The notes beneath the pieces were generated by a model that worked only from the letters and a program-made list of their open reading frames with translations, ran no database searches and was not told the origin of the DNA. Both the position numbers and the translations under genes were made by a program. A stretch of DNA of 64,000 bases from NCBI GenBank assembly GCA_008632985.1, contig QPGO01000197.1, forward strand, positions 62,001 to 126,000, in the 5' to 3' direction. Below, one piece after another: positions 34,071-64,000 of the stretch (its first letter is position 1; every line of letters starts with the position of its first letter). Source of the stretch: Psammoneis japonica (lineage: Eukaryota).

Positions 34071-34782
34071 AGCTCGCAGAAAAATTTGGCGGTCATTGGC
34101 ACCAAGTGAGAGCATCTTTGCCAGCAAGTCATGAACATGAACCCGCGTCTGTGCATCTTCTGATGCAAATGAGACTCACCCAAAATCATCATTTTCAGTG
34201 GATCACAAACCCACTTGTGGCGCCAATGACCCTTGCAGATGCCTGTTGGCGCAAAGATTGCTCCAACCCTAGAACTTGCTCAAGGTTGCTGAACAGCCTC
34301 AATCAAGAGAGATTGCTTTTGCGCCATGCTGGCAGAACCCCCAGTCTTTGCTGCAAACTGTTGGGTGCGAGGGGCCACAATTTTGGTGGGTTTGTCTGGG
34401 GCACACTGCACTTCTGCATGGTTGCCATGAAGCAGCAGGTTGAGTGATCAGCGGCACTCTCATCAGCCTGGTTGTGGCCATTGCAAGGTGCTGACAGGGT
34501 TCCTCCTTGCACCCACCAGTTCTGGACATGCCCGCTACACCACAGCCAATGAAACCACCATGACTCAAAGGCACTGACAAGAAGGCAGTTTAAGACCAAA
34601 GCAAGAACGGCAAATCTTTGGTGACAAAATCATGCACATCATGACAACAATCCTGAGAACAAGTTGCCCCCCTCCTCTGCCATTTTTGTGTGGGGTGCTG
34701 AAGCTCCTGTTCAACCAAAGACTTTCCTTGGGGAGCGCTGCAGAGAAAAAAAAGCATGTCCTCAAAGCAGCACCAGCAGCTG

Positions 34783-36190: not shown

Positions 36191-37004
36191 CTGCTGCCAT
36201 CATGGTTTCTTTCTGTGGCATCATGTTTTGACACTGTGTGGTCATTGCTTTCAAAAAGACTGCAAGGCATGTGACAATGGAAGAGTGCTTGAAATGTGAT
36301 GCAATGCGGGCAAAAATGGACTTGAAGGGTGGGGACAAAGTGTGATGGCATTGTTGCAGCAGCAGCTGTGCAGGACTCAGGGTTGCTGGCCTCAAACCAA
36401 GCTGCACATGGCAAGGAAGGCTCTCTGTTTCAAGCTCTGTGTGCAGTGTTCTTTTGGTTTTGGGGTGCTGCAACGACTCTCTGCCACTGGACCTTGGAAG
36501 GTTGGTGCCTGGCAGTGGCTGCTCAGTTGCTTGCCACACCCTCACACCCCCCACACCCCTGAGCTGTGGGTGTGCAGAACAATGGAGTCTTCAACAGCTG
36601 ACAAGATCCCACAAATGAAGTGCGTGTGAGCACCCCAGCTTTGGAGAGGTGTGGCATCAATGACAAGGGTGCAACCCAACAAATGGCAGTTGCCGCTGAT
36701 GGCATGTTTCCTGGCCAACGCCCTTTCTCCATTGGTTTGTCACTCCAGCCGGCATTGAGTGAAGCAAGTTGCCAGGAGGTGTGTGTCACCAGCTCTCTAA
36801 ACCACTCATGTCACCACCCTCATCTTGTTGGCCAGCGTCATTGCGTGGGGCAAAGTTTGAAGATGACAGCCAAGATGAGGGATGATGGCATGCACGCACG
36901 CAGAGCGCAGAGATGCGGCAGGGAAGCCGCGGCATGCCGGCAGAGGGCCTTCTGCATAAAATCATCTCACACGGTGCACCTGCAACCCTCGCTGGCTCAT
37001 GACA

Positions 37005-37756
37005 ATGGGCTTTGAGACAAGCACTTTCATCTGCCAGCCGGCAGACAAAAATCTTTGCTGTCCATTGTGCCTGCAAGTTTTTGACAGCCCAGTGACCACA
37101 TGCCGTGAAGGTCGCGTGCTCTGCAAGGCATGCTTCAACAAGCTGCGCCCTCCAGACAAGGGAAACATCACTGTGGCCACCTCCAACAAATGCCCGCAGT
37201 GTCAAGGATGCTTGGTGGACACACCACTTCCAAACCACCCTCTCCAAGGCATCATGTCTGGCCTGAAAATGAGATGCGAGAAGGTCACTTGAACTGTGTT
37301 GCCTGCGCCAGTCATTGCACCGGAGCATGCAACTGGCAGAGAACTGTGGAGGAATGTGTCACCAACCACAAACAAACTTGCAATCCCTTCGATTTGCATG
37401 GTGGCTCAACAGAATGCTCAGCAGCACAAGAGCAGATCAGACGAGGTGCTGACAGCATTGCGGCAGCTGTGCTGGAGTCGGGAGAAACCAAAGAACAAGG
37501 CAAGGCTTTGGTGCAAGCCCCGGCCCATGATGACGCATGGTCAGTTTCTCTTGCCCTTGGAGGAGAACAGGCCAGGGTGGATCACCTGTTGCCAGTGGAC
37601 TGTTCTCATTTGGCAATGAGGGAACAGGGCAGATTCATTGGGGACTTTTGTGGTGGCAAAGCAGAGATCACTTGGGAAGAGGCACGTGTTTTCTTTGTCA
37701 GGTGCGTGCTCGACCAGATTCATTCAAATGATGAAGGCCAGGAAAACAAGGAATGA
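37005..37756 (+). pseudogene. Hypermutated, frameshifted copy of the RING-finger gene at 39691-40494
   Basis: Colinear with the intact gene; many TA->CA/TG and CG->CA/TG changes; frameshift near 37280 and an internal deletion. Confidence 0.9.
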
Positions 37757-39690
37757 ACTTTGCGGCAGTGGAAGACAAGGAGCAACGCCAGGGGGAACGC
37801 ATGTCACATCATCCTGAGTGATTCCTTGCGTGCCTCACCATTTGTTGTGTTCTCCACAATGTAGAAAACTGATTTTTGCAAAGCTTTCACATTCACTGGC
37901 TCCAATTGCATTGCAAATTAACATGTGCCAATGCTGATGTTGCTGCTGCACCCTGCTCTGCCCCCCATTTGACAGCAGCAAAATCACTTGGGCTGGTTGC
38001 CAAGGAGGATTGATGCAAGGGCTGGAAGACTGGAAATGCCCTGATGCTTTGTCAACCTCAGCATGGTTCCGAAGTGCAGATGGGCAGGCAGCATGTGCCG
38101 GCACGGTGCAGCACCTGTCCCAGTCATCACATGTGAACGAACATGCACGCATGCCAAAAAGGGGCCACAGTCTTTGGGTGCCATCCACCTTCCAAAATTG
38201 CAAATGAAAATTGCAACTTTCCAGCACAAAAAGAGTGCTGAAATCCTGGAGAAAACAGTGTGTTGCCATGGCAGCATGACAGTTGATGCTTTCTCAATGA
38301 GACAACATTGCAGAGGCAGGCCCATCAGCAAAGATTGCTCAAACCCTGGAACTTGAGATTGCTTCCACACCACTCTGGCAGAGCTCCAGCCAGTCTTTGC
38401 TGCAAACTGTTGGATGTGAGGGGCCTCAATTTTGGTGGGTTTGTCCTGGGCACCCTGTGTTTCTGCATGGTCAGCCATGGAGCAGCAAGTTGTGTGGTCA
38501 GCGGCACTCTCGTCAACCCAGCTGTGACCATTTGCAAGGTGCTGACAGGGCTCCTCTTTACACCCAGCTCTGGACATGCTCTTGAGCCACAGCCAACAAG
38601 GCTGGGGCTCAATGGTGCTGACAAGAAGGCAATTTGTGACTCACATGAGAGCGGCAAATCTTCAGCAACAAAATGGTGCACACCATGACAACAATCCCCT
38701 GAGGACAATTGCCCCTGCTCCTTTGCAAATTTTGTGTGGTGCTGAAACTCCTCTTCAACCCAAGACTTTTTTCCTCGGGGGACACAACAGAGAGAGAGAG
38801 AGGTCAGAGCATCCTGTCAAGCAGCACCAGTGGCAGCTGCCATCATGTCTCTTTCTGCAACCTGATGGTTTGATGCCATCTGATCATTGCAAAAAGACTG
38901 TGAGGCAAGTGGTGGTGGAAGTCTTGAAATGTGATGCAGAACAGACCAAAAAGTGCTTGAAAGAGAGACTGAGTGTGATGGCATTGTTTTGGCAGCAGCT
39001 GCATGGTGGGGTTCTGGGTCGCTCTCAAACCAAGCTGCACATGGCAAGGAAAAGGCCGTCTGTTTCAAGGTCTGTGCACAGTGTTCTTTCAGCTTGAAGG
39101 GTGCTGCAAAACAACTCTCTGCCAGATCTCTGAAGGCTGCTGCCTGGTGCCCCCCCCCCCAAGCCTTGGCTGGGTGCGCAGAGTGCGGAGTCCTCCTCAG
39201 CTGGCAAGATCCCGCAAAAATGAAGCACTCACCTCAGCTTTGGAGAGGTGTCAACACAAAGGGCATGACCCAAATGGCAGTCAACACTGAGAGTGTGTTT
39301 CTTGGCTGATGCCCTCTCTCCATCTGTTTGTCACTCAAGCCAGCGTGCCAAGTGTGAAGCAAGTTGCCGGGTGTGGTGTGCTGTGTGTGTCACCAGCTCT
39401 GCTGTGAACCACTCCTGTCGCCACCCTCATCTAGAAGGCCAGCGTCATTGCATGGGGCAAACATTTGAGGATGGCAGTCAGACAAGATGAGGGATGAGGC
39501 CAGATGCGGCAGAGATCAAGGGAAGCCAGTGGCAGGGACTTCTGCGGATTTACATGACGGATGGTCCTTTCCATCCATCACACTCCAGAACAGATCCTTT
39601 CTTTTTTGGTCTGGCTGTCGTCGTAAGCTCATTCTTCCATCGCAATGATGTGTGTGTCAATAAATCGTCTCACACACCGGCAGATAGACA

Positions 39691-42987: not shown

Positions 42988-43512
42988 TTTTAGTAACAAC
43001 GATTCCCTGTCCTACAAACGATCTTGTGTTTCCAAGTATTAGGTTTGGTAACAGGTTTAGTGTGAATATGACGAACTGAGATTGATATAGTTCCTATACC
43101 GACCCAAAATAGTAGGGCCTACTAGCTACTCTCAAAGTGACGAAAAGTCTTCAACATTTCAACTAACAGCTCATTGTTTCGAGGAATGGAGTGGCTTGCC
43201 AAACTTTGTAAAGTGACGGCAGTATCATGGAAACACGAGCAAGTTGAAAGCATCTGCCGTACCAAAGATTAAGAACTAATACGTTTAATGTCTGTACTGG
43301 TGAGCCAATCCTGCTTCCGGCTCTCACTTCGATTCGTCTAAATCTGGATGTGGCTAGAGCTCTGTCGGACACGATGCGTCCCGCTGTTAGCGTCAAACAG
43401 AAGGTAGACCGCTGTAGGCGTGTTGGACAAATGCTGTCGTGATAGCCAGTCAATGCCGTGCATCAGCCTGATGAATAGCTCCAGCGTCTGAAAAACATAT
43501 CGCACAATAATC

Positions 43513-44979
43513 TCAGGCAAGCTCGTAGTACAGAGTGTTGATCGACTTGCTCAACACGTCTCTGTTTGCGTCAATAAAAGTGTGCTGTTTGTACTGGGCC
43601 AGACTATGCGCAACAACAGCGTTCAACTTCATTGCCTGGTTCAAAAAGGTAAAGACATTTGGCGACCGGCCGTACCCAAACGACATTTTCTTGCCGGGCT
43701 TGACGTGAAAGTTGACGCCGGTCTGGCAATATCCACCGACGCACAAGCCCACTGGGACAATGTCAGCCTCGTTTGTGATGCGAAGATGACGCAGACGTCC
43801 TTCCTCCTCTAGCGTTTCGAATGCCTTGCCGTAGGTGGTGTCGCCCGCAGTCGGAGAAGCAAAGGAAATGGCCGTAATCGGCGAAGGTACAAATTCCTTG
43901 CACTCCTCATCGGCAGCTACGGCAAAGGCCAAAAGTTGCGCAAGAGCCGCTCCCAAGCTGTGCCCACTAATGTAAAGATCGTATCCGGGGTATTGTTCAT
44001 AGATTTCTTTCAAGTCATTGACGATCTGTTTAATCTTGGGCTGGTTGTCCTCCTCTTTATTGGGACCGAATAGGTACTTGTAAAAGCCAGAATGCATACG
44101 GATCTCTTCATCTTCTTGGAGATCATCTTTGAGACATTCCGGTGTTTCATATTTTGAGAACCATGCCTGCAAGTCCGTTTTCCAATCCTGCCCCGTCACG
44201 CTTCCTCGGAAGAAAACAGCAATCCTCTTATCCGTCCTGAAATGAGCAACAAGTATGTCAATATTTGTGTGAGGGAATAGATCAATAATGTTGGAGTACG
44301 TGAATGCGTTCCGGTCCCCTACGCACTTTACTCACTTGTTCACTGTGATACCGAAAACCAGTTCTTTCATTTCAAACTTGTCGTCAAACTCCACAAGATG
44401 GATGTCGCGAGTGCAGACTTGTTCAAGTGTTGCCTCCACCTTTAACGGGTCGCCATTGTTTTCTTCGAGTGTAATGTGTCCTGCTTCGTCCGAAAGGTAT
44501 TTTCGATTTCTCCGTATAAACTCGAGAACTGCGGGTGCTGTAATGTCGTGCTTGAGATATCTTCCCCGGTTATTGACGTGAGCACTATTCTGAGTGACAA
44601 CAAAAGCAGGATCTGTAAAGTCTATAAGGTCCTTTTCTTTTTTGATTCCAAACATGCCAAATGGCAATACATTCTCCTTGGCAGGCACGCCCTTGCGTAC
44701 TTCGCGATCGTGCTCGTTTACAATTTCGCGAATGGCAGCGTAGCTGTAGATGAGGGAAGAACCTGTTATGTTGTGAGAACAATCGGAATCGAAATGATAC
44801 CCATTGCACGCCACATTGTATCTTACCAGCGAGGAACTCGGGATAAGGTCGTTGGTGGGATGTTCGGTTGAACGAAGTTGGGAAGCGATCCTCTGGTAGT
44901 GGGACGGAGCTTGAAATGAGTAAACATTCGTTACAACGCTACCGGCAATGAATGAAAAAAGGGTAGAAGAGATCTTCAT
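43513..44979 (-). CDS. Class 3 lipase, probably plastid-targeted; join(43513..44236,44336..44979)
   Basis: FRGS, HSGF, GHSLG and DIVP motifs; intron 44237-44335; signal peptide ending VYS-FQAP (ASAFAP-like). Confidence 0.88.
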
Positions 44980-45679
44980 GATGAAGTTTGATGTTTCAGG
45001 ATTCAAGTTGGATACTTTGTGAGAAAGATGAGGCCGCCATCGTCATAAGAGGTGCGCGTTGATGGGTTTCCGGCATGCAGTTTTGAGTCACTAATCGATG
45101 CTGACGTTTCCTGCACGGGGGCATAATTCGTGATTCGCTTTCGTACCTCGTGGTATCTTTTCTACGCAGTCACATCGTGTTTGCTTGATCGTTTGGCCGT
45201 CTATAAGCATGTTTGTGCCCAACTAAACTTGCGCACAGACAAACACTACTGTAGTACACTGGATCTTGAGACGGATGAGTGCAAGACAAGATAATGCTGA
45301 ATGATGCATACGCGTAGGAATGTACGCAACCTCGTACATTGACGTCACTTGCGAACTCCGTGCCGCCAACAGCACCAACAACCAAGCGCCACAAGACCAG
45401 CCATGGCGGCACTCCCAAACACCGCAAGGCATCAGCATGATGAAAGCGACAATAATACATCAGAAGCGCTCATGTTTGTCGGTAACGAAATCGACAAGGC
45501 ATAGAAGCGGCGTGGCGTTTTCATAAATTGCGCTTCCATCTGAACGCGTAGAAATCAACGAGTCGTGAGTACTGAGTGAGGAACGCGCCAAAAATCCCGC
45601 GCTCCGCTCTCCTTCTCGCACATCGTTTCGCTGGCAATACTGCACTGTAACAACAAACATCAACAAAAGCAACAACATC

Positions 45680-48452: not shown

Positions 48453-49084
48453 GCTCTTGCCAGAGATCTGTGCAATACGATACAAGCAACTCGAGGGAAG
48501 AGAGAATGAGTGAAACATTTATGGCCTTTACCTTTACACATCAAAAAGATCATGGCCGTTTTTGCCGGTGACAATTTCGAATGTTTTCTGTCGAAGACCT
48601 CGAAAATATTATGACTGCTTCATGTAAGACCAATGACTTTGATAGATATTCATTTAAGGCGGGTCATCCCCGCGTTTATCCTAGAAATTGCAGTGTCTCG
48701 CACCTTATTTTTCTGATATATAGTATTAATGAACCTATTAGATATAACGGAAGCCGTTGTAACGGGCTTCGCTGAAAGCGACCCTCGTTACCTCGGTCTT
48801 TCGCTCACAATTTTGTCATCACTGAAGTCTTTATCTCGTTAGACCTTGCACTGTAATTACAGTCGATTCAAAGAACTGGATGGAGACTAGGAACAATACA
48901 AACAAATTGACTAAACGTGAGAAAAGAGAACCACGCGCAAGAGCAGCAGTTTGGGCTGTTGAGCACCAGAAACAAGTGCAACAACGCAAACGACACGAAC
49001 AGAATTTGGCGAGCCGAGTGCATCATTTGGAGTCAAAGGTAGAGTCCCTGGAGAGGACTGTTGAACAATTGTATTCCCTTTTTC

Positions 49085-50699
49085 ATGATGAGTGAATCGT
49101 TGAAGGAGCCTTGCATTGGCTGTGAAGCTGAATTTGAGCATTCTGACTTGGAGGAAGTGAAATTGACCCAATCGCATGATGACGGCAGTGCTCATACAAA
49201 AAAGTGTCCGCGTTTTGATGGTACTCATGGCATTGAAGCATTGTTATTCGTTGAGGATCGTTTTCGTAAAATTGCTGTGAAATTGGAGTGCACTGCTGGC
49301 GAGGAGTTGTTCGAAAATTTCGAGGAAGTGCTTGCGGATGCTGCAGACGCGTTCCAGGTCTAGCTGGGACCTCGTACTGCTGAACTGTGACATCGATAGT
49401 TTTTTGAATCACGTCGTATGTCGCGCACGTAGATTTCTACGTGATTTTTTTGATATTTTGTGTCATTTTACGGTACACTTATTGAGCGATCCGTCCAACA
49501 ACTTTTGACATTTTTTGTTACAGCGCGATTCTATAATGTCTTAAGAATCGCTTAGGGCAGGTGCATTTGCAAAAACGTCGAGTGGTAAGAGGCATAATTG
49601 TACCACAAACTTGGCCGTTTATTTGATGTTGAAGATAAATATATCCATTAATTAAATTCTCGTACTACGGAGCTCGCACGTAGAATTCTACGGGCCCAAT
49701 GTCACACGGAGTCCCACCTGGGGCTGGAACGCGTCTGCAGAGGACAAGTGGGCGAACTTGACCAATGCAATTGACGATGCCGATAAAACTGTCGAGCGTT
49801 TTGATCAGGAAATCAATCGTTTTTACTTGTCTTATTGTGACAATGAAGCACGTGATGTGATGATTGAATGTTTGCCAACCTTGAAAAAACCATTCAAATC
49901 TGAAGTGCAGGCGCATGCAGATCGCATGGAAACCTTGATTCGGTGCTCCAACAAACTTCCAGGAAACACTCCTCAAGTCAACAAAGCTCAGAAGAAAAAG
50001 ATGATGTTCGACAGCTTTCCTCGTCCGTGGCGTGAGATGTGTGCTCGAGCAGGACGAGCGACAGTGAATGACACTCTCGCTGAGATCATCAGTTGCACGA
50101 ACAACGAGAAATCTTTTGCTGACAAGAGTGGCAACAAGAAGCAGGACAAGAAGAGGAAAAGCAATGGTGCTTCGTCTCAAGCTTCAAGATGCTCTCGTGG
50201 CAACAGTGGCAGAACAGATCCAGAATCTAGATGCCCGGTGCATGCGAATCACGACCACAAGTGGAAGGACTGCATTTTGAATCCAGAAAGCCAAAACTGT
50301 CGACCGAGGTCCGACCGTGGTGGTCGTAGCGGAGGTTGTGGTGGAGGCCGAGGAAACCACCAAGGTGGAGGACCCCAAGGTCGAGGCGGTCGTGGCAACT
50401 TCCAAGGTCGAGGACGTGGCAATCATGGCAATCAAGGAGGATGTGGAGGCCGAGGTTACGGCAATTGTAACAACTCCCAGAATTCTCAAGGGAGTGGATC
50501 CCATTGCCAAAATCAAAACGGCACCCAAGCCAACGGTGACACCCAAGGCTGTGGAAATCCGGCTGGAGCAGCTCCTCCTGGTGGCTGGCAAATGGAGTCG
50601 CACCATTTTGATCAAGGAGGGCCTCGTGAGATGCGAGGTGGAAATGGACACGATCAGAATGGTTGCACCCATCAAGGCCAACGAAGTTGGCGTAATTGA
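49085..50699 (+). pseudogene. gag: Gypsy gag interrupted by a 390-bp MITE
   Basis: Removing 49346-49739 joins ..EEVLADAA-EDKWANL..; CPVHANHDHKWKDC knuckle; RGG-rich tail. Confidence 0.85.
49346..49735 (+). mobile_element. 390-bp MITE, copy 1 (TpA intact)
   Basis: 12-bp TIR GACGCGTTCCAG/CTGGAACGCGTC; 4-bp TSD TGCA. Confidence 0.92.
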
Positions 50700-53600
50700 C
50701 AAGGGACGGAAGTGCCCGAGTCAGAGCGTGTTGCTCAATCTTTTTATGTTTCGCGTGATCGTGAAGAAAATGTGTGTTTTAATGTTGATGACAATGTGGG
50801 AGACCTGATGGAATCTTGTGCTGTGAATGAAGAAAACTTGGGCGGCGTTTTGGAGTGCGCTGTGCCAACCCCTAAAACTGCGACTCCCAAACCATTGAAT
50901 GTGGTGCCAACGACGTTGATGGCGGCGCGCACCATTCAAAATCAAGAGAGCAAGCGAGTGTTGCGAGTGCTGTTGGATTCAGGAGGTGCCAACACTCTTG
51001 TTCATTCTCGAGTTTTGCCGAAGGGAGCGAATCCAACCATGAACGATGAAGGACGGTTGAGCTTTCAGACGGTGGCCGGACGATGTGAATCCTCCCGATG
51101 CGTCATTGTGAAGGACTTGACATTGCCAGAATTTGACAAGTCAAAACAAGTCGACAGTGTTGCGGCTCAAGTTTTTGACACCCCATGCAAGCATGATTTA
51201 ATTTTGGGACAAGACTTTTTGTCGAAAGCCGGAATCGGGCTTGATTTTCGATTTGGAACAACAAAGTGGTTGGAAACGTCGATCCCAATGAAGCAATCCA
51301 ATCATTGGAACTCAGTTCAGAATTGGTTGGATGCACTGGAAGACGACGGAGAGGACGAAGACGATGAGGAAGCCTTCGGACAATCTTTTGTGATGGACGC
51401 CAAATGCGAGAAAGCATCATCCGCGAAAGTGGCACAAGCTCAAACTCACTTAACTCAAGAACAACGTGATGAGCTGCGGGCTGTGCTTGAAAAGCATGAA
51501 ACCCTCTTTGATGGAACGCTTGGCAAATGTCCGCATGAGACTGTTCGCTTGGAAGTTGATCCCAACGCTGTTCCCTTCCATTCTAAGGCTTGCAAAGCAT
51601 CCAAGAGGGATGAAGCCGTTTTTAAGAAAGAACTGCAACATCCATGTAATGTTGGCGCACTGGAGCCAGTGGGACCAACTGAATGGGCAGCCGGAACTTT
51701 TGTAACTCCCAAAAAGGATGGACGAGTTCAATGGGCACCCGATTTTCGAGAGTCGAACAAGGTGCTCAAACGAAAGGTCTGTCCTCTGCCGATCATTCAA
51801 GACGTTGTTCACTGATGCTCGGGATGCAAGCACTTGACCAAGTTGGACCTCACTGTGTTTTATTGTCATGTTGAGCTTGACAAAGAATCCAAGGATCTGT
51901 GTGCTGTTGTTGCTCCGTTTGGAAAATTTCGATGTTGTCGATTGGCCATGGGTTTGAAAACCTCTCCCGATGTTGCTCAAGCCATCATTGAAAAAGTGGT
52001 GAAAGGAGTCGATGTTGAAACTTACATCGATGATGTTGCTCAATTTGATGATTCGTTTGATGCTCACATGCGTCGACTCGATGAGCTGTCATCCAGACTA
52101 GAAGAGAACAATCTGAAAATTAACCCACTCAAGTGCGAATGGTGTGTCCAAGAGACAGATTTTTTAGGCCATTGGCTCACGCCTGCAGGAGTCCGACCAT
52201 GGAAGAAGAAAGTGGAAGCAGTGCTACGAATGCAACCACCTAAAACCATGATGCAACTGCGATCGTTTGTCGGTGCGGCAACTTGTTGTCACAACATGTG
52301 GCCTCGTCGCTCACACGTGCTCGCTCCACTCACGAAGTTGACAGGCAAGAGCAAGTTGGAATGGACCCCTGAATGTCAACGAGCCTTTGAAGACATGAAA
52401 ACCTTGATGCTGGACGACACCCTTTGGGTCCACCCGAATCATGACAAGCCATTCCACATTTGTGCTGACTCTTCGGACTGTCAGATGGGAGCCGTGATTG
52501 TGCAAGACGGGAAACCAGTGGCTTGCTGGTCCCGGAAACTCAGCGCAGCACAACAGAACTGCTCTACGATTGAAAAAGAATCATTGGCGGTGGCAATGTG
52601 TTTCAAAGAATTTTGAAGCATGTTGTTTGGAGCTGACTGTGCTGTTTTTGTGGATCATAAAAATCTCACCTTTCGCACGCTCAATTCTCAACGAGTTCTT
52701 AGGTGGCGACTCTTCTTGGAAGATTTTGCCCCAACTTTCGAATGCGTTGATGGCAAAGACAATCTCTTGGCGGATTGTTTTTCAAGATTGCCGCACATGG
52801 ACCCTCCTGCGGAAGGGAAGTGTGCTCCCAACAAGGGCAAGCTGATTGATTTTAAGGCGATCGACCCTGCCATGCTGCCGCATGAAGAAGAGCTGGACGA
52901 CCAAAACTGTGTGTCTCATTTTTCCTGTCGTCGTGAAGAACCATCTCCATTTTACTCTTCTGTCGTGGACGACCCCAAATTGTGTGAATCATTTTTGAAC
53001 TGTCCTTCTCTCGAGGAAATGCAAAACCCCACAACTGTGCAACGAATTCAAGAACACCAATTCGTCGACGTGGAGCTGAACAACATGCGACAACAATGTC
53101 CAGAATGCTTCGTTGTGAAACATGTGAATCAGCGTCCTGTAATTTGTTGTCGTGCTCGACCGAATGATCCTCCGACTGCGTGGAAAATTTGTGTTCCAAC
53201 GGCGTTGCTGCACGACATCATATGATGGTGTCGTGGGATTTTGGGACATGCAGGAGTGCACCGAATGCATTCCACTGTTGGCGCACATTTCTGTCATCCT
53301 GCCCTTTGTCAATCCTGTGAAAGATTTCATTGTGCTGATTGTCAACATTTGAAAACTTTAGGCCCTGGGTGTGGGGACCCACCTGAACAGGAAGCGCCTT
53401 TGTTGCCATGGACGGAAGTTGCGGTTGATCTCATCGGTCCCTGGAAAATTGAAATTCAAAACCATGAAATCGAGTTCAACGCTTTGACTTGCATTGATGC
53501 CGTTTCGAATGTGACTGAACTTGTTCGCATCGACAACAAAACCTCGTCTCACATTGCTCAACAATTTGAAAATTGTTGGTTGTCTCGTCATCCTCGTCCC

Positions 53601-54194
53601 AACCGGTGCATCCATGACAATGGTGGAGAATTCATTGGAGAGGACTTTCAATTGTCATTGCAACGAGCAGGAGTGGAAGACGCTCCGACTGCGTCGCGAA
53701 ATCCACAAGCCAATGCGGCATGCGAGCGCATGCATCAAACTGTTGGAAGTGTCTTGCGCACTTTGCTTCATGTTTGTCCTCCACAGAATGTTGAGCAGGC
53801 CAATCAACTGGTGGACAATGCATTGGCAACCGCCATGCATGCAATGCGATGTGCGGTTTCTCGTGCTCTCAAGATTTCACCCGGTGCTGTGGTTTTTCAA
53901 CGTGATGTGATTCTCGACTTGCCGGTCCCAGCCGATCTTGCCGCCATTCAAGAACACCGACAAGCGATCATCAATGCGAATCTCCGTCGAGCCAACGCTA
54001 AACGCCGATCCCACGATTTTCAAGTTGGCGGACAAGTTCTGCTCAAGGCCATCGACCCAACCAAGCTCGAGCCACGAGCTCACGGTCCACATCCTGTCGT
54101 TCAAGTGCATGCTGACGGTGCGCTTGCGGTCCAACGTGCACCTCATGTGACAGAACGATTGAACACACGTCGCGTCGTACCGTGTCACACCTGA
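50700..54194 (+). pseudogene. pol: Gypsy pol (protease, RT, RNase H, integrase) with in-frame TGA stops and pervasive Tyr->Cys/His changes
   Basis: LLDSGG, YIDD, ADSSD..GAVIVQDGKPVACWSRKL, H..H..C..C, VDLIGP, DNGGEF, ERMH; TGA at 51813, 52614 and 53223 where CGA fits. Confidence 0.93.
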
Positions 54195-54434
54195 GGTCAA
54201 GGGTTTTCTCCCCAACATTTGGGTTTCCCTTCTATCCTCATCCATTGGAATTTAAATTTTTTGAGTCCCGCATGATTCTCGACACTCGAGTCATGGAAGG
54301 GAAGAGTGCAGTGTCTCGCACCTTATTTTTCTGACACACAGCATTAATGAACCTGTTAGATATAACGGAAGCCGTTGTAACGGGCTTCGCTGAAAGCGAC
54401 CCTCGTTACCTCGGTCTTTCGCTCACAATTTTGT

Positions 54435-54458
54435 NNNNNNNNNNNNNNNNNNNNNNNN
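54435..54458. other. Assembly gap (24 N)
   Basis: Run of n. Confidence 1.
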
Positions 54459-54776
54459 ATAAGTAATCATAAGTCATCATAAGTCATCAACAGCCCTCAC
54501 GACTCAAAACATAGAAAGGCACATGAATAAATAATGCATAAACAGTATTATGTTCTTCGCCAAACAAGACTAAATTTAACGGATAACCGTTAAAAACTAC
54601 ATAACACCATTGACAAAAATTTCCGTTGTGTTCATATAAATATACATAACTCATAAAAATTCGCGGACGGTGCTGTGTTGTTGCGTGCATCGCACAAACC
54701 ATCCTCATGATGTTACCAACAGACATACACCGCCAACATTTCTGCTCTTCAAGATAGGAACTAGTCGTTGTTTACT

Positions 54777-56007
54777 ATGAGGATTTCAACTGTGTGTGCT
54801 GTTACAAGTCTTGTTGTTGCCCTGAGTGCTGCTGTTGAAGGAACCTTTTATCCTGCAAACAACATAGAGAATTTCAGTTTTGCAGGCCGGTGGCAACAGC
54901 TTGAGGATGATGGTGTTGTCAGGTCGGACTGGCCGTGCAGCAGAGTGCAATTCAACATAAACATGACTGCAGAAGATGGCGTCATTACCCTCCGAGTAAA
55001 ACTTCATCGGGTGCGGCTCAACGCAGTCGTCACCAACGCAGTCACCGGCGAACTGGAGCAAACAACGATTCTGAAAGGTAATTCGTTTCGGCAGAGAAGG
55101 ATAAATACGGCATTCGAATTGAAGCACCGGAATGCACACCGTCACACTGACAAAATTGACACAAGCGGCACCCTATGGCAATGGTTTGGGCAAGTCAGCC
55201 ACGTCGGTGCTTGAATTCTATGGAGTAGAAATGGATGACGATGTCGCGACTCTTTCGCTTCCACCAAAACTGCCGGTACACCGGATTGGTTTTATTGGTG
55301 CCAGTGATACGGCAGGCTTTTGTGTGGATGGTACTCCGCAAGCATGTGACCATCTCGTTCGACCCTGGAAATACAACAATTGCGACTCTGCATATCCTGG
55401 CGTCTTGGGAAAACGTTTGAATGCCGAGGTGAGCGTCCAAGCCATATCAGGCATTGGACTGACGCAGAATGCGTTTGCGAATTTGCCAGTGGCGCTTGGT
55501 GAAAAAACAATACAGGATTATTACAACCGAACCCTTCAGACAGAGACGCTGCCTTTTTGGGACTTTGAAGAGTGGCGACCACACCTTGTGATTGTTTCTC
55601 TTGGTGGAAATGATTATAACCACCAAGAGGAGGTACCTTCCAACGAGACTTTTGTTCAAGCATATCAAAAGTTTCTTTTACAGATTGCCGAACCATATAC
55701 AAACGATGAAATTCCAACAATTGTGAGTATATGTGGGCAAGGGGACCCGACGGAACTGAGCCGAGATCCAAACAATGATCGTTGTCGGCCTTGTCCGTAC
55801 ATACAATACGCGGTCGAATCCTTTCAGACTATGCATGGTGCAACCATTCCGACCGAATACATTTTTGTTCCATGCGACGGCACGGTTGTGTCGGGAGATG
55901 GTGATATTGGTTGTGACGGCCACAAGAACCGGCTTGGTCAAGAGCGGGTGGCTGACTTTTTGGAACCAAAGCTTCGTGAAATCATGGGCTGGCCCAACAG
56001 CCAATAA
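54777..56007 (+). CDS. Secreted SGNH/GDSL esterase (carbohydrate esterase CE2-like); apparent frameshift ~55095-55125
   Basis: Signal peptide; FAGRW, FIGASDTAG (block I variant), AISGIG, LGGND, DGH; the paralogue at 57.7-59.3 kb has two extra bases here that restore the frame. Confidence 0.8.
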
Positions 56008-56524
56008 GTTCGACAGAGCCGATGGCTACATCAACGAGCGGAGGTGTTGCGATGACTGTCGTAGCCTACCCATGTAGTGCACGGCAGCATTTTGGCATTA
56101 TCGGAAGTTAACTTGCTGCAAAGGGCGACGTATTATTTCAGCTTCTTCCTTCAGACTTAGTGAGCTCTTGTGTGATGAGAACTTTCCTCTCTCTTCTGCA
56201 CCGGTGTAGTCTCGAGATTATGAGCTGTAGCTACACAGATGTGACTTTTCAATCGCTTTGGGCTCCTAAGTGTCAGCTAAGTCGCAAAGCGTCAACCGCT
56301 TATTTTGCCATAAGAATCTTTGGTGAAAGACATAAGACAGCGTCGTGCGCAACAGAGTCACTCTTGCCGTGAGTAGGTTCAACACACGTCGTATTGGATA
56401 GTTTACAGGTTTTAGCTGTTATAATAGACAATGTCTAATGTGCAATACACTGACGTTTCGTTACGCACTGGCATATTTTGGAATGGTGTGAACGTGCTGC
56501 GATTTTCCGCCAACAAAAGTCGGA

Positions 56525-57346
56525 TCAAGTCAAGAAGCCAGCATCCACCAATCCCTTGATTTTTTTACACTCGACCTTGTGATTTCTCTTCCATGCAGCA
56601 CGTTGGCATTCTTTGGAACAAAATTGGGCGATTTTGCAGGCGGAGCACTTTTTCATGACTCTTGCAGAAACCACCTTTTGACAGCCCGGACAATACGCCT
56701 TGCGCCCATCCAAGCAATGGCAATCAATGCGGCGAGCGAGAAACGGAACCACATCATCGCCGCAGTCAATGCGAGCAACCTCTCTGTAGCGATATTTCAA
56801 GGCGTCCGTTTCAGAGGAAAACTTCGGCTGACTGCCCGTCTCTTCTTCCGCAAGTTTTTCAATCACCACGCATACTGCGTCAACAACGGAGCCCTCTCCG
56901 GAGGCAACTGGGGGTCACCGTCCACCAGGGCGTCAACCGCCGTGGAAAAAAGAAAGCACGCAAAATCTTTTGTAATCGGAATTTGATCCTTACAAGCATT
57001 CACGGCATCTACGGCGGGGCTTAGTTGGGTGTTGTTCCAACTAATTCGCACAAGCCTCGTTCAATTTTGACATTGACATTGAGTAGGACATGAATTTACT
57101 TTTGTTGCCTTGATGGTTGTAACAGTGATAGCACGGTTCACCATTCGGTTTGTTTGCCTTGTGGATACAAAACGGGTTGTTGCACGGACAAGCCGCGGGT
57201 GCTGGTCTCTTTTCCGCAACGCAGCCTCTGCACAACCGTTTTCCCCACTTTGTTAAGTTCAAAGGCAGTAAAGTCCGCCGAACCAGCTCTTCTTGACAAC
57301 GGTAGCAGGTCGGCATGGTGTATGATGATGGTTTTATAATCGTCAA
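56525..57346 (-). CDS. MYND zinc-finger protein; two apparent frameshifts
   Basis: CPGC..KKCSACKIAQFCSKECQRAAWKRNHKVEC preceded by RRIDCHCLD. Confidence 0.75.
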
Positions 57347-57670
57347 TCTGTTTCCACTCTTCTTGATTCTTGATGCAATGCTAGATGCTTAGCTACTGTA
57401 GCTATCGAAACTGAAAACTTCTGTGCGCCGCAAGCCGCAAGGCAGACAACGCCTGCAATGAGGCACAGAATCAAGACCAACACACACCCGAGACACTGAC
57501 AAGACAATCCCCGTGGACTGACGTCCGTCCCCCAGCCGTCCCGACGCCCGTCGCAGTTTTGAAGTTCGAAAGTTGTGCACATCGAACAAAAACCATCCCA
57601 TGGTTATGGTGTCACTGCCAACAGACAGCACCAACCTTGTTGCTTTTCAAGCTACAGCCGTCGTGTTGCT

Positions 57671-59320
57671 GTGAGGATTTCAACTGTTTGTGCTGTTGCA
57701 AGTCTTGTTGTTGCCTTGAGCGCTGCTGTTGTTGAAGGAACCTTTTGTCCTGCAACAATGCAGAGAACTTCAGTTTTGCAGGTCACTGGCAACAGCTTGA
57801 GGACAATGGTGTTGTCAGGTTGGACTGGCCATGCAGCAGAGTGCACTTCAACACAAACATGACTGCAGAAGAGATGGCATCCTTGCCCTCCGAGCAAAAA
57901 TTCATCGGGTGCAGCTCAGTGCAGTCGTCGCCAACACAGTCACCAGCAAACTGGAGCAAACAACAATTCTGAAAGGAAATTTGTTTCAGCCAGAGAAGGA
58001 CAAACATGGCACTCAAATTGAAGGCACCAGGGTGCACACCGCGGCATTGGCGGACGTGCTCCAGCCCCAGGTGGGACTCCGTGTGACATTGGGCCCGTAG
58101 AATTCTACGTGCGAGCTCCGCAGTGCAAGAATTTAATTGATGGATGTGTTTGTTTTCAACATCAAATAGACGGCCAAGTTTGTGGCACAATTGTGCCTCT
58201 CACCACTCGACGTTTTTGCAAATGCGCCTGCCCTGCGCGATTCTCAAGACGTCACAGAATCGCGCTGTGACAAAAAATGTCAAAAGTTTTTGGACGGATC
58301 GCTCAATGACTGCACCGTAAAATGACACAAAATGTCGAAAAAATCACGCAGAAATCTGTGTGCGCGACATGCGACGTGATTAAAAAAACTGTCGACGTCA
58401 CAGCTCAGCAGTGCGAGGTCCCACCCAGACCTGGAACGCGTCGGCGCTGACAAAATTGCTGACACAAAAGCGGTGCACCCTGTGGCAACGGTTTGGGCAA
58501 GTCAGCCATGCCGGTGCTTTAATTCCACGGAGTGGAAATGGATGACGCTGTTGCAACTCTTTCAACTCCACCAACACTGCCAGCATGCTGGGCTGGTTTT
58601 GTTGGTGCCAGTGATGTGGCAGGCTTTTGTGTGGATGGCACTCCGCAAACATGCAGCCATCTTGCTCAACCCTGGAAATGCAACAATTGCAACTCTGCAT
58701 GTCCTGGCATCTTGGGAAAACGTTTGAATGCTGAGGTGAGCGTCCAAGCCATTTCAGGCATTGGACTGACGCAGAGTGCGTTTGCAAATTTGCCAGTGGC
58801 GCTTGGCAAAAAAACAATGCAGGGTCATTGCAACCGAACCCTTCAGACCAAGACACTGCCTTTTTGGAACTTTGAGGAGTGGCAACCACACCTTGTGATT
58901 GTCTCTCTTGGTGGAAATGATTGCAACCACCAAGAGGGGGCACCTTCCAATGAGACTTTTGTTCAATCACATCAAGAGTTTCTTGTGCAGATTGCCACAA
59001 GCCATTTACAAACGATGAATTTTCAACAATTGCGAGCACATGTGGGCAAGGGGACCCGGCGGAACTGAGCCAAGATCCAAACAACAATCATTGTCAACCT
59101 TGTCCACATGCACAAGATGTTGTCAAATCCTTTCAGATTGCGCATGGTGCAACCATTCTGACCGAACACATTTTTGTTCCATGCAACGGCCCGGTTGTGA
59201 TGGGAGTTGGTGACATTGGTTGTGACAGCCACAAGAACCGGCTTGGTCAAGAGCGGGTGGCTGACTTTTTAGAACCAAAGCTTTGTGAAATCATGGACTG
59301 GCCAAACAGCAAATGCGTTT
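57671..59320 (+). pseudogene. Hypermutated duplicate of the SGNH esterase gene, interrupted by MITE copy 2
   Basis: Colinear with 54777-56007; start ACTATGAGG->GCTGTGAGG; WKYNN->WKCNN, AYPG->ACPG, DYYN->GHCN, NDYN->NDCN. Confidence 0.93.
58053..58442 (-). mobile_element. 390-bp MITE, copy 2 (inverted, TpA-mutated)
   Basis: Reverse-complement match to 49346-49735, same length; TSD GGCG (58049-52 / 58443-46). Confidence 0.92.
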
Positions 59321-59620
59321 GACAGAGCCGATGGTTGCACCAACAAATGGAGTTGTTGACACAAGAACCAGCTTGGTCAAGAGCGGGTGGCTGACTTTTT
59401 AGAACCAAAGCTTTGTGAAATCATGGACTGGCCCAACAGCTGACATGCGTTCGACAGAGATGATGGCTGCACCAATGAATGGAGTTGTTGACACAAGAAC
59501 CAGCTTGGCCAAGAAAGGGTGGCTGACTTTTTAGAACCAAAGCTTTGTGAAATCATGGACTGGCCTGACAGCTGATGCGTTCGACAGAGCCGATGGTTGC
59601 ACCAACAAATGGAGTTGTTG
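59231..59620 (+). repeat. Tandem triplication (~130-132 bp unit) of the esterase pseudogene 3' end
   Basis: ACAAGAACC..TTTTTAGAACCAAAGCTTTGTGAAATCATGGACTGGCC units starting at 59231, 59361 and 59493. Confidence 0.9.
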
Positions 59621-62201
59621 TGATGACTGCCAGACAACTGCGGACATTGTTGTCTGCTCATGTGGTGCCATGTGCAACATTGCAACTTTGTCAGAAGTTA
59701 ACTTGCTGTAGAAAGTGACTTTGGTTTTAGTTTCCTCTTGCATTGGTGAGCTTTTGGATGATGAGAACTTGCCTCTCTCTCTGCTGCACCAGGCAATCTT
59801 AAGACCAGGTGCTGTTGCCACACGTGCATCTCTTGAGGAGAGAGAAAGAGATTGTTCTAAGTCAGAGTGATTGTGGCTGATGCGTGCAAAGCTGCCATGT
59901 GTTTGGAAGTTGTGGTGTCTCTCATGAATCAGGCTGGAGGTGTTGGCATCCTTTTGCACTGCCAGGAATCCCACTGCACCAGTCTCATTTTCAAGCAAGA
60001 ATCTTCCACACCAGTGCTCATGTCCCAAGTTTCTCAGATGCGGAAGATTGGAGACCAACAGGAAATGAAGTGGTCTGTGCTTCCCCCTGCATGAGTGTGT
60101 GTGTGTGTGGTGGTGTGTGTGTGGGGGGGGGGGGGGTGCTGTGCGTTGCTGCTTCTGAGGTGCTTTGTGCATTGCAGAAGCAGCACTCATGGCTGCGAGC
60201 ACCTGACAAGCCACGGCAACCTCACTCTTTTCTTTCACCAATGTTGCACTGCATGTTTGACGAGTTGAGAGTGAGTTTTTGCTTGCAGCCCACACCACCC
60301 ACCCATTGTGGCTCTCTGGCAAGAGCTCCAGTTCTGGGTTCCTTGAGTTGCAAGCTCTGGCTTGAGGTCTGGTGCCAGTGGCTTGCACCACAACCAACCA
60401 GAGTGCTCAAAATCAGGATCATCAGCCAACAGTGAAGAGCAGAGTCAGAGAATGACAGAGGTCAATTGACCAGCAATTGCTGAAGAATCAGCTGGTTGGC
60501 CATTGAGCAAGTCAAAATGACAAGGAATTCAAAGACTCAGGTTGCACCTGGCACTGGCAAAGCTGGTGCTGGAAGCAAAACAAGAGCAGTGGTGCTGGGT
60601 GCTTGCTGAGGAAGCAGCACATGCTCCAGCCACACACGAGCTTTTGTTGTGATCTCAGGACAGCCAGCAATGCTGAGCTGGGAGGATTGCCTCAGTGAAT
60701 GGTTGTGATTTCCAAGTGCATGTGCTCATGATTGGTGTGCCACACAAACAGCACCCAGTTGCTTGTGCACTCTGTGGGAGCATCTTTGCTGCAGTTGTGC
60801 CTGCTGTGCAATCTTTGCAAGTTTTTCACATTTTTGATCTTTTCAACTCTGCTGAAATTTTTTGCCAACAGACAGCACACCACCGACCAGGGAGGTTTCC
60901 ACAGAGAGAACGTTTGATGTGCGGCTGCTGCAGCGCACCTTGGATCCTGTTGCATCATGGCATTTGTTGATTCCGCTGCTGGCGCGGCCGTGCTTGCTGG
61001 GGCAAGAGCTGGTGGTGGTGGTGGTGGTGGGGTGGAGGTTGAGAGTTCAAATCTGAGGCTCTGTCAAAAAAGCAATTGTGGCTTGTGAGGCAAAAGAAGA
61101 GCTGCCGCCGAGTGCTTCGCCAGCCTGGAGCCACTGTTGCTCTGTGTTTTGCACTGGTCACTGGCTGCCATCAAATGGCCAATGGAGTTGTGTGGTTCTG
61201 TTGCATTGGGGCCGGGAGACACAGAAATGGATTGCAGTTGAGTCACATGAAGAGCTGCGGGGGCGGTGAAAAAAGACAGAGCTGGAGCATGGGATTCAGA
61301 TGGGATTGAACACAACCAGGCCTGCGGGGAGCATTGACCACTTGTCTTTCTTTGTGGGTGTGGGTGCATGTGTGCCGTTGCATGCTGCATTGCCTGTACG
61401 TGCACAGGGCCCTGCCGTCGGGGCCGGCATTGTGGTGGCTGAGTGGCGTGGCCACCGCACCGGTGACGCGGATGACCGTCACATTTGATGTCTCATGCCA
61501 TTTTTGGGGCTGCAGCGAGGTGCACGGACACTCTTTTTTTTCCAATTTATCGCCACAACAGCACATCGCACAAACTCACTTGTTGTTTGATGTGTTTTCC
61601 CCAGTCTGACTTTTTCATGTAGAATTCACGACAAATTGTCTTTGTGTGCAACTGAACACATTTTTGAACATGCCACGCCGGCAATCCCAATTTTTCAGAA
61701 CTTTTGAGCTCTCCTGAAAAACCGTGCCATGCACCAGTCGCAGGGAATTTGCCGATTTTTTAGGATGTCCCCACAACCTCTCATGTCCTCAATGACAATT
61801 CCAAGAATCCGAAGAATTCATCTGCACTGAACAACCCATGCCCTTTCAAAATCCAAGGGACACACTTTCAAATTCAGACGGACAAACCGACTGCCCCACT
61901 GCCCCACTGCCCCACTGCCGGACCGACACGAAAAAGTCTGCAATCACCAACCACTGAGTGGTCAATGATTTGTTCTTCTGCTCACGCATGTCATGCTTCG
62001 AGCAGTCATGCAATCTGTCCGTCGGTCTGTGCGTGAAGCCAAAAAATGACAAAAGAAAACAAACAATGAAAGAAGGCTCTGCGTGCGTTGCAGGTTGCAG
62101 CAGTGAAGCATCCAGCATTGCTGCGATCGCTGCATGCTGCGTCTCTTCATCCTCCCCACCTTGCCATCATCTTGAGTGCCACTTTTGACAACAAGCCTTC
62201 C

Positions 62202-62984
62202 ATGACTTCCTTTGACCAACTCGACAAGGGTGTTCAGCGTGGGCTGCAAGTCCTTGCAACACAGCATCGGCATGCTGTCGTTCAAGCAGTTCTCAAGAAA
62301 GAAGATGACTTTGGCAGGACAGAAAGTCATGAACTGTACAAAGGCTGTGCGCAAATCATGAAGGAAGAGAATTTGTCCCCTGCTGCATTTCTGGCTCGCT
62401 CTTTTGACATGAAGGTGCTGACGGGTCACGCTGAGTGGCTGGAAGCACCCTGTGACAAAAACAACGACACCGTGACCGACTTGTGCACATGCTTGGAACA
62501 AGCGTGGCTCAACCGAGAATTTCCGAACAAATCAATTCCGATGTGTGACAATGCCAATCATGAGGAAATTGAAGGGAGGAAGAAGAAGCTCGAGCGCGAG
62601 GCCCGTGAGAATTCGTCGTTCGAGAAGAATGATCCAACAGAAATGACCAAGCCACACTGCCGGTTCTTCATCTGCCTTGCACATGAAGAAAAGGACAACA
62701 ACCAACCTCCTGAAAACTTCTATGAAATGGCAGAAGAGGCGGCTCAAGCTTTCTGGGAATTGATGTTTGGAACCTGTGGGCATGCCAATTGCCACTTGGA
62801 TTGCCCCGGTTGGCTTGCAAACAAATTCTTCATCTCTGCTGAAGTTGAACTTGAAAACATGGAAACCACTGGTGTTCCGGAAACTGCAGAACTGATTGAT
62901 CAAGAAATCTCAATGAAAGGGGTGTTCAGATTGGATGCGGGTGATGTTGGAAAGAGTTACGTTGAAATCACTCGTGTGGAATGA
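62202..62984 (+). pseudogene. Protein-like open frame inside a TpA-depleted block (hypothetical protein or mutated relic)
   Basis: 260 codons with natural composition (E/K-rich coiled stretch), few Tyr. Confidence 0.45.
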
Positions 62985-63195
62985 ACGCCTGGTGTGGCAC
63001 ATGGCTCTTGCATTGAGGTTCACAGTGCCACTTGATTGCCAGGGGACAGCTCGGGGAACACATTCCACATCTTGTGAATGGTCGTGCGGTGGCAGAGACA
63101 CGTTCACATCACCGTGACAAATGTTGCTTTGCATTCTAATGACCAACGACAAAGGCTGCAACACAACTCAAACCATTGTGCAGAACTGCAGCCAT

Positions 63196-63642
63196 TGCAG
63201 TGTGCATGCAGACAAAAGGTTGTTTTTGTCATGCCCTTTGTGACATTTAAAGGCTGCAACACGTCGCTGTGATGCATTGGCTCTTGTTGGCAGCTGTGTG
63301 TTGCACTCCTCCCCATGTGTCACGCGTCCATGCGGCTCTTTACTGACATGTGCTGACACTGCACGGTTTTGGCAGAACAGTGTGGGTGCGTGCGAAGGAA
63401 CATGCAGAACTGCACAGAGTTTTTACGCGTTCGACAGTGATCAACGTTGCTGCAGACAACTCCCACTCAGGGTTTCGAACCCCTGGCCTCCTGCCTGATG
63501 GTTGCGATGAACTGCTGCATTGTGAACTCACAATGCAGTGTGCATGCAGACAAAGGTCATTTTTGTCATGCCCTTTGTGACATTTAAAGGCTGTAACACG
63601 TCGCCGTGACACATTAGCTCTTGTCAGCAGCTGCACACTGCA
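63196..63642 (-). mobile_element. TRIM-like miniature LTR element, copy 2
   Basis: Same structure as 25116-25567; ends TGCAGTGT..ACACTGCA; flanks CCAT/CTGT. Confidence 0.8.
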
Positions 63643-64000
63643 CTGTCCCATTGTTGCCGTTGCATCTCTCTAGACTGCAAATTTCAGTTTGTCGTGTTCG
63701 CAAGCAGCTGCAGTGTTGCACTCATCTTGCAAACTTTCCTTCCTTCTGATTGTTCCGTCCTTCTCTTGCTTGAGATGGTCCCTGCCACGCATGCCGGCAG
63801 AAGTCAGTCACCCGATCTGGGGGGGAAGCATTTTGGTTTTAGGCGGGCGGGCTCATCGCGCCCTTGCCCAGTCATGATGTCACGATCACGATCACGTCCA
63901 TCCATCTGTCTCATCAACGCAGACGGGAAATTGACCGTGCTTCCACCAAATGGCAAACTGCCAACTGCTGCTCTAGATCAGAGAGGGTCATCACCAGAGT

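What the first reader, a model, noticed from the sequence alone, without database searches (positions are those of the whole stretch)
54777..59720. Duplicated esterase gene: one copy untouched, the neighbour hypermutated (asymmetry unlike RIP)
Seen: the copy at 57671-59320 lost its ATG (TATG->TGTG), most Tyr codons and many CpG, and carries a MITE and a tandem triplication. The copy 3 kb away retains TA even at silent sites and in the 3' flank. Known: RIP normally mutates both paired copies. Inference: targeting is domain-based (chromatin or methylation state, perhaps seeded by TE insertion) rather than pairing-based, and it reaches host-gene duplicates.
Basis: partly seen in the sequence, partly recalled or inferred. 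Interest (0 to 1): 0.75.

Follow-up and report, generated by a model that had tools for sequence, protein, structure and literature searches.

The report
One-sided TA hypermutation of esterase duplicate
A dead copy of a diatom esterase gene has had almost every TA step rewritten to TG or CA while its intact twin 3 kb away is spared, which points to a DNA mutator that picks its targets by chromosomal neighbourhood rather than by matching duplicates.

Summary
Confirmed. Copy B of an SGNH/GDSL esterase gene lost 37 of copy A's 38 TpA (33 to TG/CA), 43 of 65 CpG, its ATG and every Tyr codon. An outgroup paralogue gives 23 T[A>G] changes in B and 1 in A; short-read contigs confirm B. The chemistry is RIP in reverse and matches the TpA hypermutation of integrated viral DNA in Bigelowiella natans (2026 preprint); my searches found no such report for diatoms. 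Targeting depends on position, not pairing: 833 bp of single-copy DNA has no TA; in the twin contig one LTR of the neighbouring Ty3 lost 10 of 15 TA while the LTR 320 bp from A lost none; a RING gene pair shows the same asymmetry. The MITE is not the seed: it lost 3 of 29 CpG against B's 43 of 65, so it arrived late. The motif is TAY >> TAR. Silencing as the cue and an ADAT2/TadA-type enzyme are inferred; methylation and expression were not measured. The scan noted this process, one-sided host duplicates included, on other DNA of this genome.

The parts
54777..56007 (+). Copy A: intact SGNH/GDSL-type esterase gene, 410 aa; 38 TpA and 66 CpG kept
   Evidence: Open frame in twin contig C187; PF13472 E 3e-5, below the curated cut-off; 84 homologues, named ones from algae; keeps 73 of 74 near-invariant residues; two 1-bp gaps in the window are assembly errors
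57671..59320 (+). Copy B: pseudogene; ATG to GTG, 37 of 38 TpA and 43 of 65 CpG of A lost, frameshifting insertions, MITE inside
   Evidence: present in contigs of run X1 with 1 and 11 other letters
58053..58442 (.). MITE (non-autonomous TIR element, 4-bp target duplication at 58049-58052 and 58443-58446); late arrival: 23 of 28 TpA but only 3 of 29 CpG lost
59230..59620 (+). Tandem triplication of B's 3' end; the three units share the TpA losses, including the lost stop codon, so TpA loss most simply came first
57406..64000 (.). TpA-depleted domain holding B; continues to about 65950 in extended coordinates and holds a third, more decayed esterase copy D just past the window end
   Evidence: TA lists and observed/expected counts; D by DNA search and tblastn
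60481..61313 (.). Single-copy DNA inside the domain with 0 TpA (about 25 expected at the genic rate)
   Evidence: a genome search of 60490-61305 finds only itself and the C187 twin, 2 of 2 candidates
56525..56914 (-). MYND-finger gene (3' part) between A and B; the A-B interval has ordinary TpA and CpG
   Evidence: PF01753 E 1.5e-8; 56301-57405 has TA 41 against 77 expected and CG 62 against 61
48689..54458 (+). Ty3/gypsy LTR element upstream of A (LTRs 48689-48850 and 54307-54458); body TpA-depleted, end next to A spared
   Evidence: RT, RNase H and integrase families; LTR comparison and fine bins
54356..54776 (.). Spared zone upstream of A (outer part of the 3' LTR plus 5' flank); about 0.8 kb wide in the C187 twin
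37001..38094 (+). Second one-sided pair: dead copy of the RING-finger gene region at 39687-40985; of 31 TpA in the main aligned block none is kept, 24 are TG/CA

Best explanation
A tandem duplication left copies A and B of a host esterase gene in a diatom. B fell silent and became part of a marked domain; A stayed in use. A DNA mutator that works on such domains turns 5'-TA into TG on either strand (read as TG or CA), much faster at TAY than at TAR, until almost no TpA is left. CpG decays more slowly alongside, as expected for methylated DNA. The mutator picks DNA by where it lies, not by pairing of duplicates, and a zone of roughly 0.4-0.8 kb upstream of the intact gene is spared even where it is transposon DNA. 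The MITE and the triplication came after the decay had begun. Shown: spectrum, direction, one-sidedness, motif, independence from copy number, late MITE. Inferred: silencing or CG methylation as the cue, protection by an active gene, and adenine deamination by an ADAT2/TadA-type enzyme (about even odds for the enzyme class).
For: Direction: T[A>G] 23 in B against 1 in A, C[G>A] 27 against 3, other changes 49 against 34 (Fisher p 4e-4 and 1.5e-3); A and the outgroup exchange TpA evenly, 13 of 47 against 8 of 38 (p 0.61). Position: LTR pair of the native Ty3 insertion on C187, 10 of 15 TpA lost in the 5' LTR and none in the 3' LTR 320 bp from A's start; single-copy 833 bp with 0 TpA; second one-sided pair. 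Selection cannot easily explain A: 18 silently mutable TpA are kept and MITE copies show loss building up site by site from 0 to 23 of 28. Motif: at sites with TAY on one strand and TAR on the other the TAY strand was hit 42 of 56 times (p 2.3e-4); surviving TpA are mainly TTAA and CTAA/TTAG. Specificity in 45 MITE copies: TA 297 of 2520 strand-sites, AA 12 of 3150, CA 8 of 2111, GA 2 of 2070, CG 28 of 2610. Precedent: a single-copy, transcriptionally silent viral insertion mutates only at TpA in B. natans. ADAT2-like and TadA-like genes and several C5 methyltransferase genes exist in the genome.
Against: No methylation, chromatin or expression data for A or B. No enzyme is tied to the process: the deaminase frames read (7 of 9 matches) look like housekeeping enzymes, some are exon pieces, and I saw no chromatin-reader fusion by eye. 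A>G at TA cannot be told from T>C on the other strand. MITE counts are not independent (shared ancestry) and the copies were chosen as best matches to two queries. Young MITEs keep 27-28 of 28 TpA inside fully depleted flanks; this fits a lag but shows that a domain is not erased at once. 'Single-copy' rests on a BLAST-level search; an old diverged partner could be missed. The window's contig looks joined to another locus at the Ty3, so the cleanest LTR test comes from the twin contig, not the window. The outgroup is a paralogue in the same genome, not an orthologue.
Confidence: 0.7

Rival explanations
1. Spreading from transposons: B was drawn into the mutated state by older repeats on its right (60124 onward), so TE recognition is the cue and silencing of B is a consequence.
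For: B is continuous with a 6-kb block holding repeat families. 22 of 45 MITE copies have both flanks depleted, and some copies with one ordinary flank show few TA in the nearest 200 bp. An unchecked scan note (e1-7623287) describes about 500 bp of spill-over into a gene.
Against: The MITE inside B is too young to be the seed. A lies 320 bp from a depleted Ty3 and is spared, with the sparing reaching into the element. CpG loss in B shows no gradient from the right: 16 of 22, 30 of 51 and 10 of 15 from 5' to 3'. Two MITE copies in ordinary DNA left both flanks ordinary.
Confidence: 0.2
2. Pairing-dependent, RIP-like mutation of both copies, with selection removing every lineage in which A was hit.
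For: A and B are linked direct duplicates over about 1.6 kb, the geometry RIP uses (passages of PMC2621366); the left edge of depletion (about 57406) lies near the start of homology (57572). Diatoms have DNMT4 enzymes, relatives of those tied to RIP (passage of PMC9998398).
Against: Opposite chemistry to RIP. One T[A>G] on the A lineage despite 18 silent targets and untouched flanks; single-copy DNA is erased; paired LTRs are hit unequally.
Confidence: 0.06
3. Same targeting, other chemistry: the lesion is on thymine (T>C in R-T-A, for example through an oxidised thymine), or error-prone repair synthesis near T:G mismatches writes A>G.
For: TpA is self-complementary, so A>G and T>C cannot be told apart. 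CpG decay occurs in the same domains. A>G outside TA is slightly raised in B: 26 of 441 against 11 of 368 for G>A outside CG (p 0.06).
Against: Polymerase-eta-type errors hit AA as well as TA (recalled, not from a call); here AA is at background, about 30-fold below TA. TA loss runs far ahead of CG loss, so it is not a by-product of CpG repair. No evidence here against a thymine lesion as such.
Confidence: 0.3
4. Ordinary pseudogene decay, GC-biased conversion or an assembly artefact.
For: B's changes are 78 non-synonymous to 21 synonymous, as for a neutral pseudogene; the assembly has many 1-bp errors.
Against: 37 of 38 TpA lost against about 6% or less change at other A contexts; GC content stays near 0.48-0.50; B's letters recur in the C187 twin and in short-read contigs.
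Confidence: 0.02

Closest known systems
TpA hypermutation of integrated NCLDV and virophage DNA in Bigelowiella natans (Mettrop et al., bioRxiv 10.64898/2026.01.13.699255)
   Same: TpA to TpG/CpA on both strands, sharply local, acts on single-copy DNA; ADAT2-type deaminase proposed but not shown.
   Different: There: a rhizarian, viral insertions measured in accumulation lines, TpA only modestly depleted in the giant-virus region (Rho 0.45). Here: a diatom, host-gene pseudogenes and transposons, near-complete erasure (49 of 128 bins of this window below 0.15), coupled CpG decay, a TAY preference, and sparing next to an intact gene. The parts of the paper I read give no 3' context and no duplicate-pair test; its supplements were closed.
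Repeat-induced point mutation (RIP) of fungi
   Same: Dense, dinucleotide-specific transitions that destroy repeats and duplicated genes.
   Different: RIP makes C:G to T:A changes, mostly CpA to TpA, in both paired copies (PMC2621366). Here A:T goes to G:C, TpA is consumed, one copy only is hit, and single-copy DNA is hit.
DNMT5-dependent methylation of transposons in Phaeodactylum tricornutum (PMC9998398)
   Same: A diatom mark on silent mobile DNA that would explain the CpG decay and offers a domain cue.
   Different: Explains CG>TG/CA only; the paper has no occurrence of 'TpA'. Methylation was not measured here.
TadA/ADAT2 and ADAR adenosine deaminases
   Same: A-to-I gives A>G. Table 1 of PMC10661471 lists 5'ACG for TadA/ADAT2, which fits a pyrimidine 3' of the edited A.
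   Different: The ADAR hotspot 5'UAG is among the least mutated contexts here. No natural genome-wide DNA activity is shown for this organism.

Membership tests
RIP | C:G to T:A transitions, TpA gained | tested here: not met
   TpA lost to TG/CA, polarised with an outgroup; RIP definition
RIP | Both paired copies mutated | tested here: not met
   23 against 1 T[A>G]; RING pair and LTR pair also one-sided
RIP | Confined to duplicated sequence | tested here: not met
   833 bp with no other match in the genome has 0 TpA; BLAST-level sensitivity only
RIP | Premeiotic timing and RID/DNMT4 dependence | not testable with these tools
   Needs crosses and mutants
B. natans-type TpA hypermutation | A>G / T>C restricted to TpA, both strands | tested here: met
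   18 CA and 15 TG in B; TA about 30-fold above AA, CA and GA in MITE copies
B. natans-type TpA hypermutation | Local domains, single-copy targets allowed | tested here: met
B. natans-type TpA hypermutation | Target is DNA of viral or foreign origin | tested here: not met
   B is a copy of an algal host esterase; transposons are also hit
B. natans-type TpA hypermutation | About 1000-fold raised de novo rate, active in only some lines | not testable with these tools
   Needs mutation-accumulation lines
B. natans-type TpA hypermutation | Target transcriptionally silent | not testable with these tools
   Needs RNA reads of this organism
SGNH/GDSL hydrolase (copy A) | Family profile match and conserved Ser, Gly, Asn, His blocks | tested here: inconclusive
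   PF13472 E 3e-5 but 24.9 bits against a cut-off of 32.9; homologues named SGNH esterase; S177, G228, N279 and H383 near-invariant among 52 homologues (their catalytic roles assigned from recall); activity untested

The most novel reading that the evidence does not exclude
This diatom has a genome-wide, pairing-independent DNA editor, probably an ADAT2/TadA-type deaminase, that attacks any silent DNA at TAY, host pseudogenes and single-copy DNA included, while active genes cast a protective zone of several hundred bases that even covers adjacent transposon ends. With B. natans this would be a shared SAR genome-defence system that also decides the fate of gene duplicates.
Probability: 0.3. Interest if true: 0.88.

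Novelty: new variant of a known kind. Interest (0 to 1): 0.62.

Why it matters
A natural, targeted A-to-G mutator of genomic DNA has one published precedent in my searches, on viral insertions in an unrelated alga. This locus shows it killing a host-gene duplicate and carries built-in controls for how targets are chosen (a twin gene, an LTR pair, a late MITE, single-copy DNA). It would change how duplicate-gene fate and transposon ages are read in diatoms, makes the cue testable in a group with genetic tools, and may point to a natural double-stranded-DNA adenine editor.

Tried and rejected
Expression: no RNA holder listed; this says nothing on expression. Contigs of run X2 (library not on record) cover A and the MYND gene and not B; a part without cover is no evidence, so it is not used. 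X1 and X2 are one sample and may be the source of the assembly, so they check assembly errors, not biology. Using the C198/C187 differences in the Ty3 as an allelic mutation spectrum: dropped, because the target duplication fits only on C187 and many differences are TG against CA, which cannot be assigned to TA or CG. MITE as the seed: rejected. 'Other substitutions' as a clock for the MITE: not used, subfamily variants blur it (12 in B's MITE, 1-8 in copies with 0-1 TpA lost). A decayed MYND copy after B: none found. A deaminase with a chromatin-reader domain: none seen in 7 of 9 PF00383 matches read by eye; ADAR and other deaminase families were not searched. A DNA-level orthologue from another species was not fetched; the closest proteins are 52-60% identical, too far for silent sites. 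Literature searches that gave no diatom report of TpA hypermutation, judged from listings and abstract starts; one search found only the B. natans preprint. The library lacks most subscription papers.
Full report
Setting. The window is C198:62001-126000 of a 91.4-Mb assembly. A silicon-transporter search gave 24 matches over the family cut-off, several full length, so the organism is almost certainly a diatom. TpA is bimodal along the window: 49 of 128 bins of 500 bp have observed/expected below 0.15, gene-rich stretches sit at about 0.4-0.9, and GC content hardly changes.

The two copies. A (54777-56007) encodes a 410-aa SGNH/GDSL-type esterase. In the window it seems frameshifted twice, but a near-identical twin on contig C187 and contigs from both runs laid carry the two missing bases. 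It has 84 homologues, the named ones from diatoms, Parmales, haptophytes and pelagophytes, and keeps 73 of 74 columns that are near-invariant among the 52 homologues I aligned (the top 55 of 84 less three partial ones). The Pfam match is significant but under the curated cut-off. B (57671-59320) aligns with A at 82-86%, with homology from 57572 to 59823. A third, more decayed copy D lies just past the window end, and a 79%-identical paralogue on C37 serves as outgroup.

Of A's 38 TpA, B has CA at 18, TG at 15, other letters at 4, and keeps 1; of 65 CpG it keeps 22. Of 22 TpA shared by A and the outgroup, 20 are TG/CA in B. Polarised counts (13 sites could not be polarised): T[A>G] 23 in B, 1 in A; C[G>A] 27 and 3; all others 49 and 34 (Fisher p 4e-4 and 1.5e-3). 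All 14 Tyr codons of A are changed in B, though two are gains in A and one is ambiguous. B's changes are 78 non-synonymous to 21 synonymous, A's 18 to 20. A's count is probably inflated by sites where B and the outgroup changed in parallel. B's sequence recurs in C187 and in contigs of run X1, so it is no assembly artefact.

It is not RIP. RIP changes C:G to T:A in both paired copies, mostly CpA to TpA (passages of PMC2621366). Here TpA is consumed. The match is the TpA-only hypermutation measured in Bigelowiella natans, where the main target is a single-copy, silent giant-virus insertion and an ADAT2 homologue is proposed (bioRxiv 10.64898/2026.01.13.699255; I read parts 1-3 of 5, abstract to conclusion; methods not read, supplements closed and might hold flanking-base data). 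An earlier scan note led me to that paper.

Targeting is positional. (1) A keeps 18 TpA that could change silently, and B keeps 1 of them; B keeps 1 of 13 TpA of A's 3' flank. MITE copies show loss building up gradually from 0 to 23 of 28 sites, so selection would not purge silent hits from A. (2) Depletion runs about 6 kb past the homology and includes 60481-61313, with 0 TpA against about 25 expected and no match in the genome but its twin. (3) On C187 the Ty3 upstream of A has its target duplication on both sides. Its LTRs differ at 13 of 162 sites: the 5' LTR lost 10 of 15 TpA and 2 of 10 CpG, the 3' LTR, 320 bp from A's start, lost none; even the 5' copy of the target duplication has CA for TA. 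The window's 5' LTR matches that 3' LTR at 161 of 162 sites, which fixes the direction. TA counts per 250 bp are 1-6 along the body and rise to 11, 20, 20 within about 0.8 kb of A; in the window the spared part starts at about 54356. (4) A second host pair, a RING-finger gene at 39688-40494 and its dead copy at 37001-38094, has 31 TpA in the main block, none kept and 24 TG/CA. Old paralogues at 11205-13633, both in ordinary DNA, show no one-sided loss (9 of 46, 10 of 39).

The MITE is not the seed. It spans 58053-58442 with a 4-bp target duplication and belongs to a large family. Against the majority sequence of 45 copies (49 loci, 4 duplicates dropped; best matches to two queries, so not a random sample) it lost 23 of 28 TpA but 3 of 29 CpG, whereas B lost 43 of 65 CpG (p 3.6e-7). 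MITE CpGs are not immune: 4 differ between the two contigs. So B had been decaying long before the MITE landed. The three repeat units share their TpA losses, so the triplication is most simply later too. Spreading from older repeats right of B is not excluded, but CpG loss shows no gradient across B.

Motif and chemistry. In MITE copies TA strand-sites changed 297 of 2520 times, AA 12 of 3150, CA 8 of 2111, GA 2 of 2070 and CG 28 of 2610 (8 shared variants left out; counts not independent). TA loss is thus fast, CG loss slow. Where one strand reads TAY and the other TAR, the TAY strand was hit 42 of 56 times over 8 pair alignments (p 2.3e-4; A enters several of them). Among 363 surviving TpA in 124 kb of depleted DNA, relative survival is 0.28 for TTAA and 0.002 for ATAT. 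A review table lists 5'UAG for ADARs and 5'ACG for TadA/ADAT2 (passages of PMC10661471): TAG is among the least hit here, which disfavours ADAR and fits TadA/ADAT2. Background AA rates disfavour polymerase eta (its WA preference is recalled). A lesion on T cannot be excluded. The genome has ADAT2-like and TadA-like frames (labels from motifs, by recall) and 27 C5-methyltransferase matches, several full length; DNMT5 methylates transposons in P. tricornutum (abstract and passages of PMC9998398). Nothing here ties these genes to the process.

Verdict. A real, clean case of one-sided TpA hypermutation of a host-gene duplicate. It works like the B. natans process and is not RIP. New relative to the paper I read: lineage, host-gene targets, near-total erasure, TAY preference and sparing beside an intact gene. 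Searches showed no diatom report (listings and abstract starts only). The scan's own notes record the same process, one-sided host duplicates and the TAY motif on other DNA of this genome; they are unchecked and not counted as support. The step from position to silencing or methylation is inference until expression and methylation are measured.

Noticed in passing
window 48684-48689 and 54307-54463; C187 twin: The Ty3 target duplication fits only on C187; the window's left flank does not match, and the two contigs are unrelated left of 48686. The window's contig looks joined to another locus at this element (ectopic recombination or misassembly).
   Followed up: partly
window 49343-49738: Young MITE of the same family inside the Ty3, 28 of 28 TpA kept, absent from the C187 twin.
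   Followed up: yes
G000:C198:126264-126657 (L006, L008): Third, more decayed esterase copy D, about 69% identical to A; of 12 TpA none kept.
   Followed up: partly
window 56005-56007: A stops at 410 aa; the C37 paralogue reads on in another frame into a Ser/Thr-rich, hydrophobic-ended tail, and the nine closest homologues are 438-563 aa. A may have lost a C-terminal anchor.
   Followed up: no
window, codons 342-345 of A: Cluster of A-specific changes (H342Y, V343I, D345Y) at conserved sites; two create new Tyr codons.
   Followed up: no
window 33773-34082 against 43361-43529 and 45422-45554; 34309-34746 against 38355-38793; 36188-36885 against 38831-39497: More duplicated pieces: one-sided TpA loss where one copy is in ordinary DNA, both copies depleted where both lie in the 30.5-39.5 kb domain.
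   Followed up: partly
window 54360-57500 against C187: One substitution in about 3.1 kb between the two contigs, against about 0.9% in ordinary DNA further right; many 1-bp indels here are assembly errors.
   Followed up: no
L081:313-1785 (-): A zinc deaminase domain in one 491-aa frame with what looks like a 2-oxoglutarate/Fe(II) oxygenase domain (label from recall); an unusual fusion.
   Followed up: no
G000:C38:226311-230342: Three silicon-transporter domains in a single 1511-aa open frame.
   Followed up: no
window 59270, 59400, 59532: A TpA gained in B in TTAG context survives in all three repeat units and both contigs, in line with TAR resistance.
   Followed up: yes
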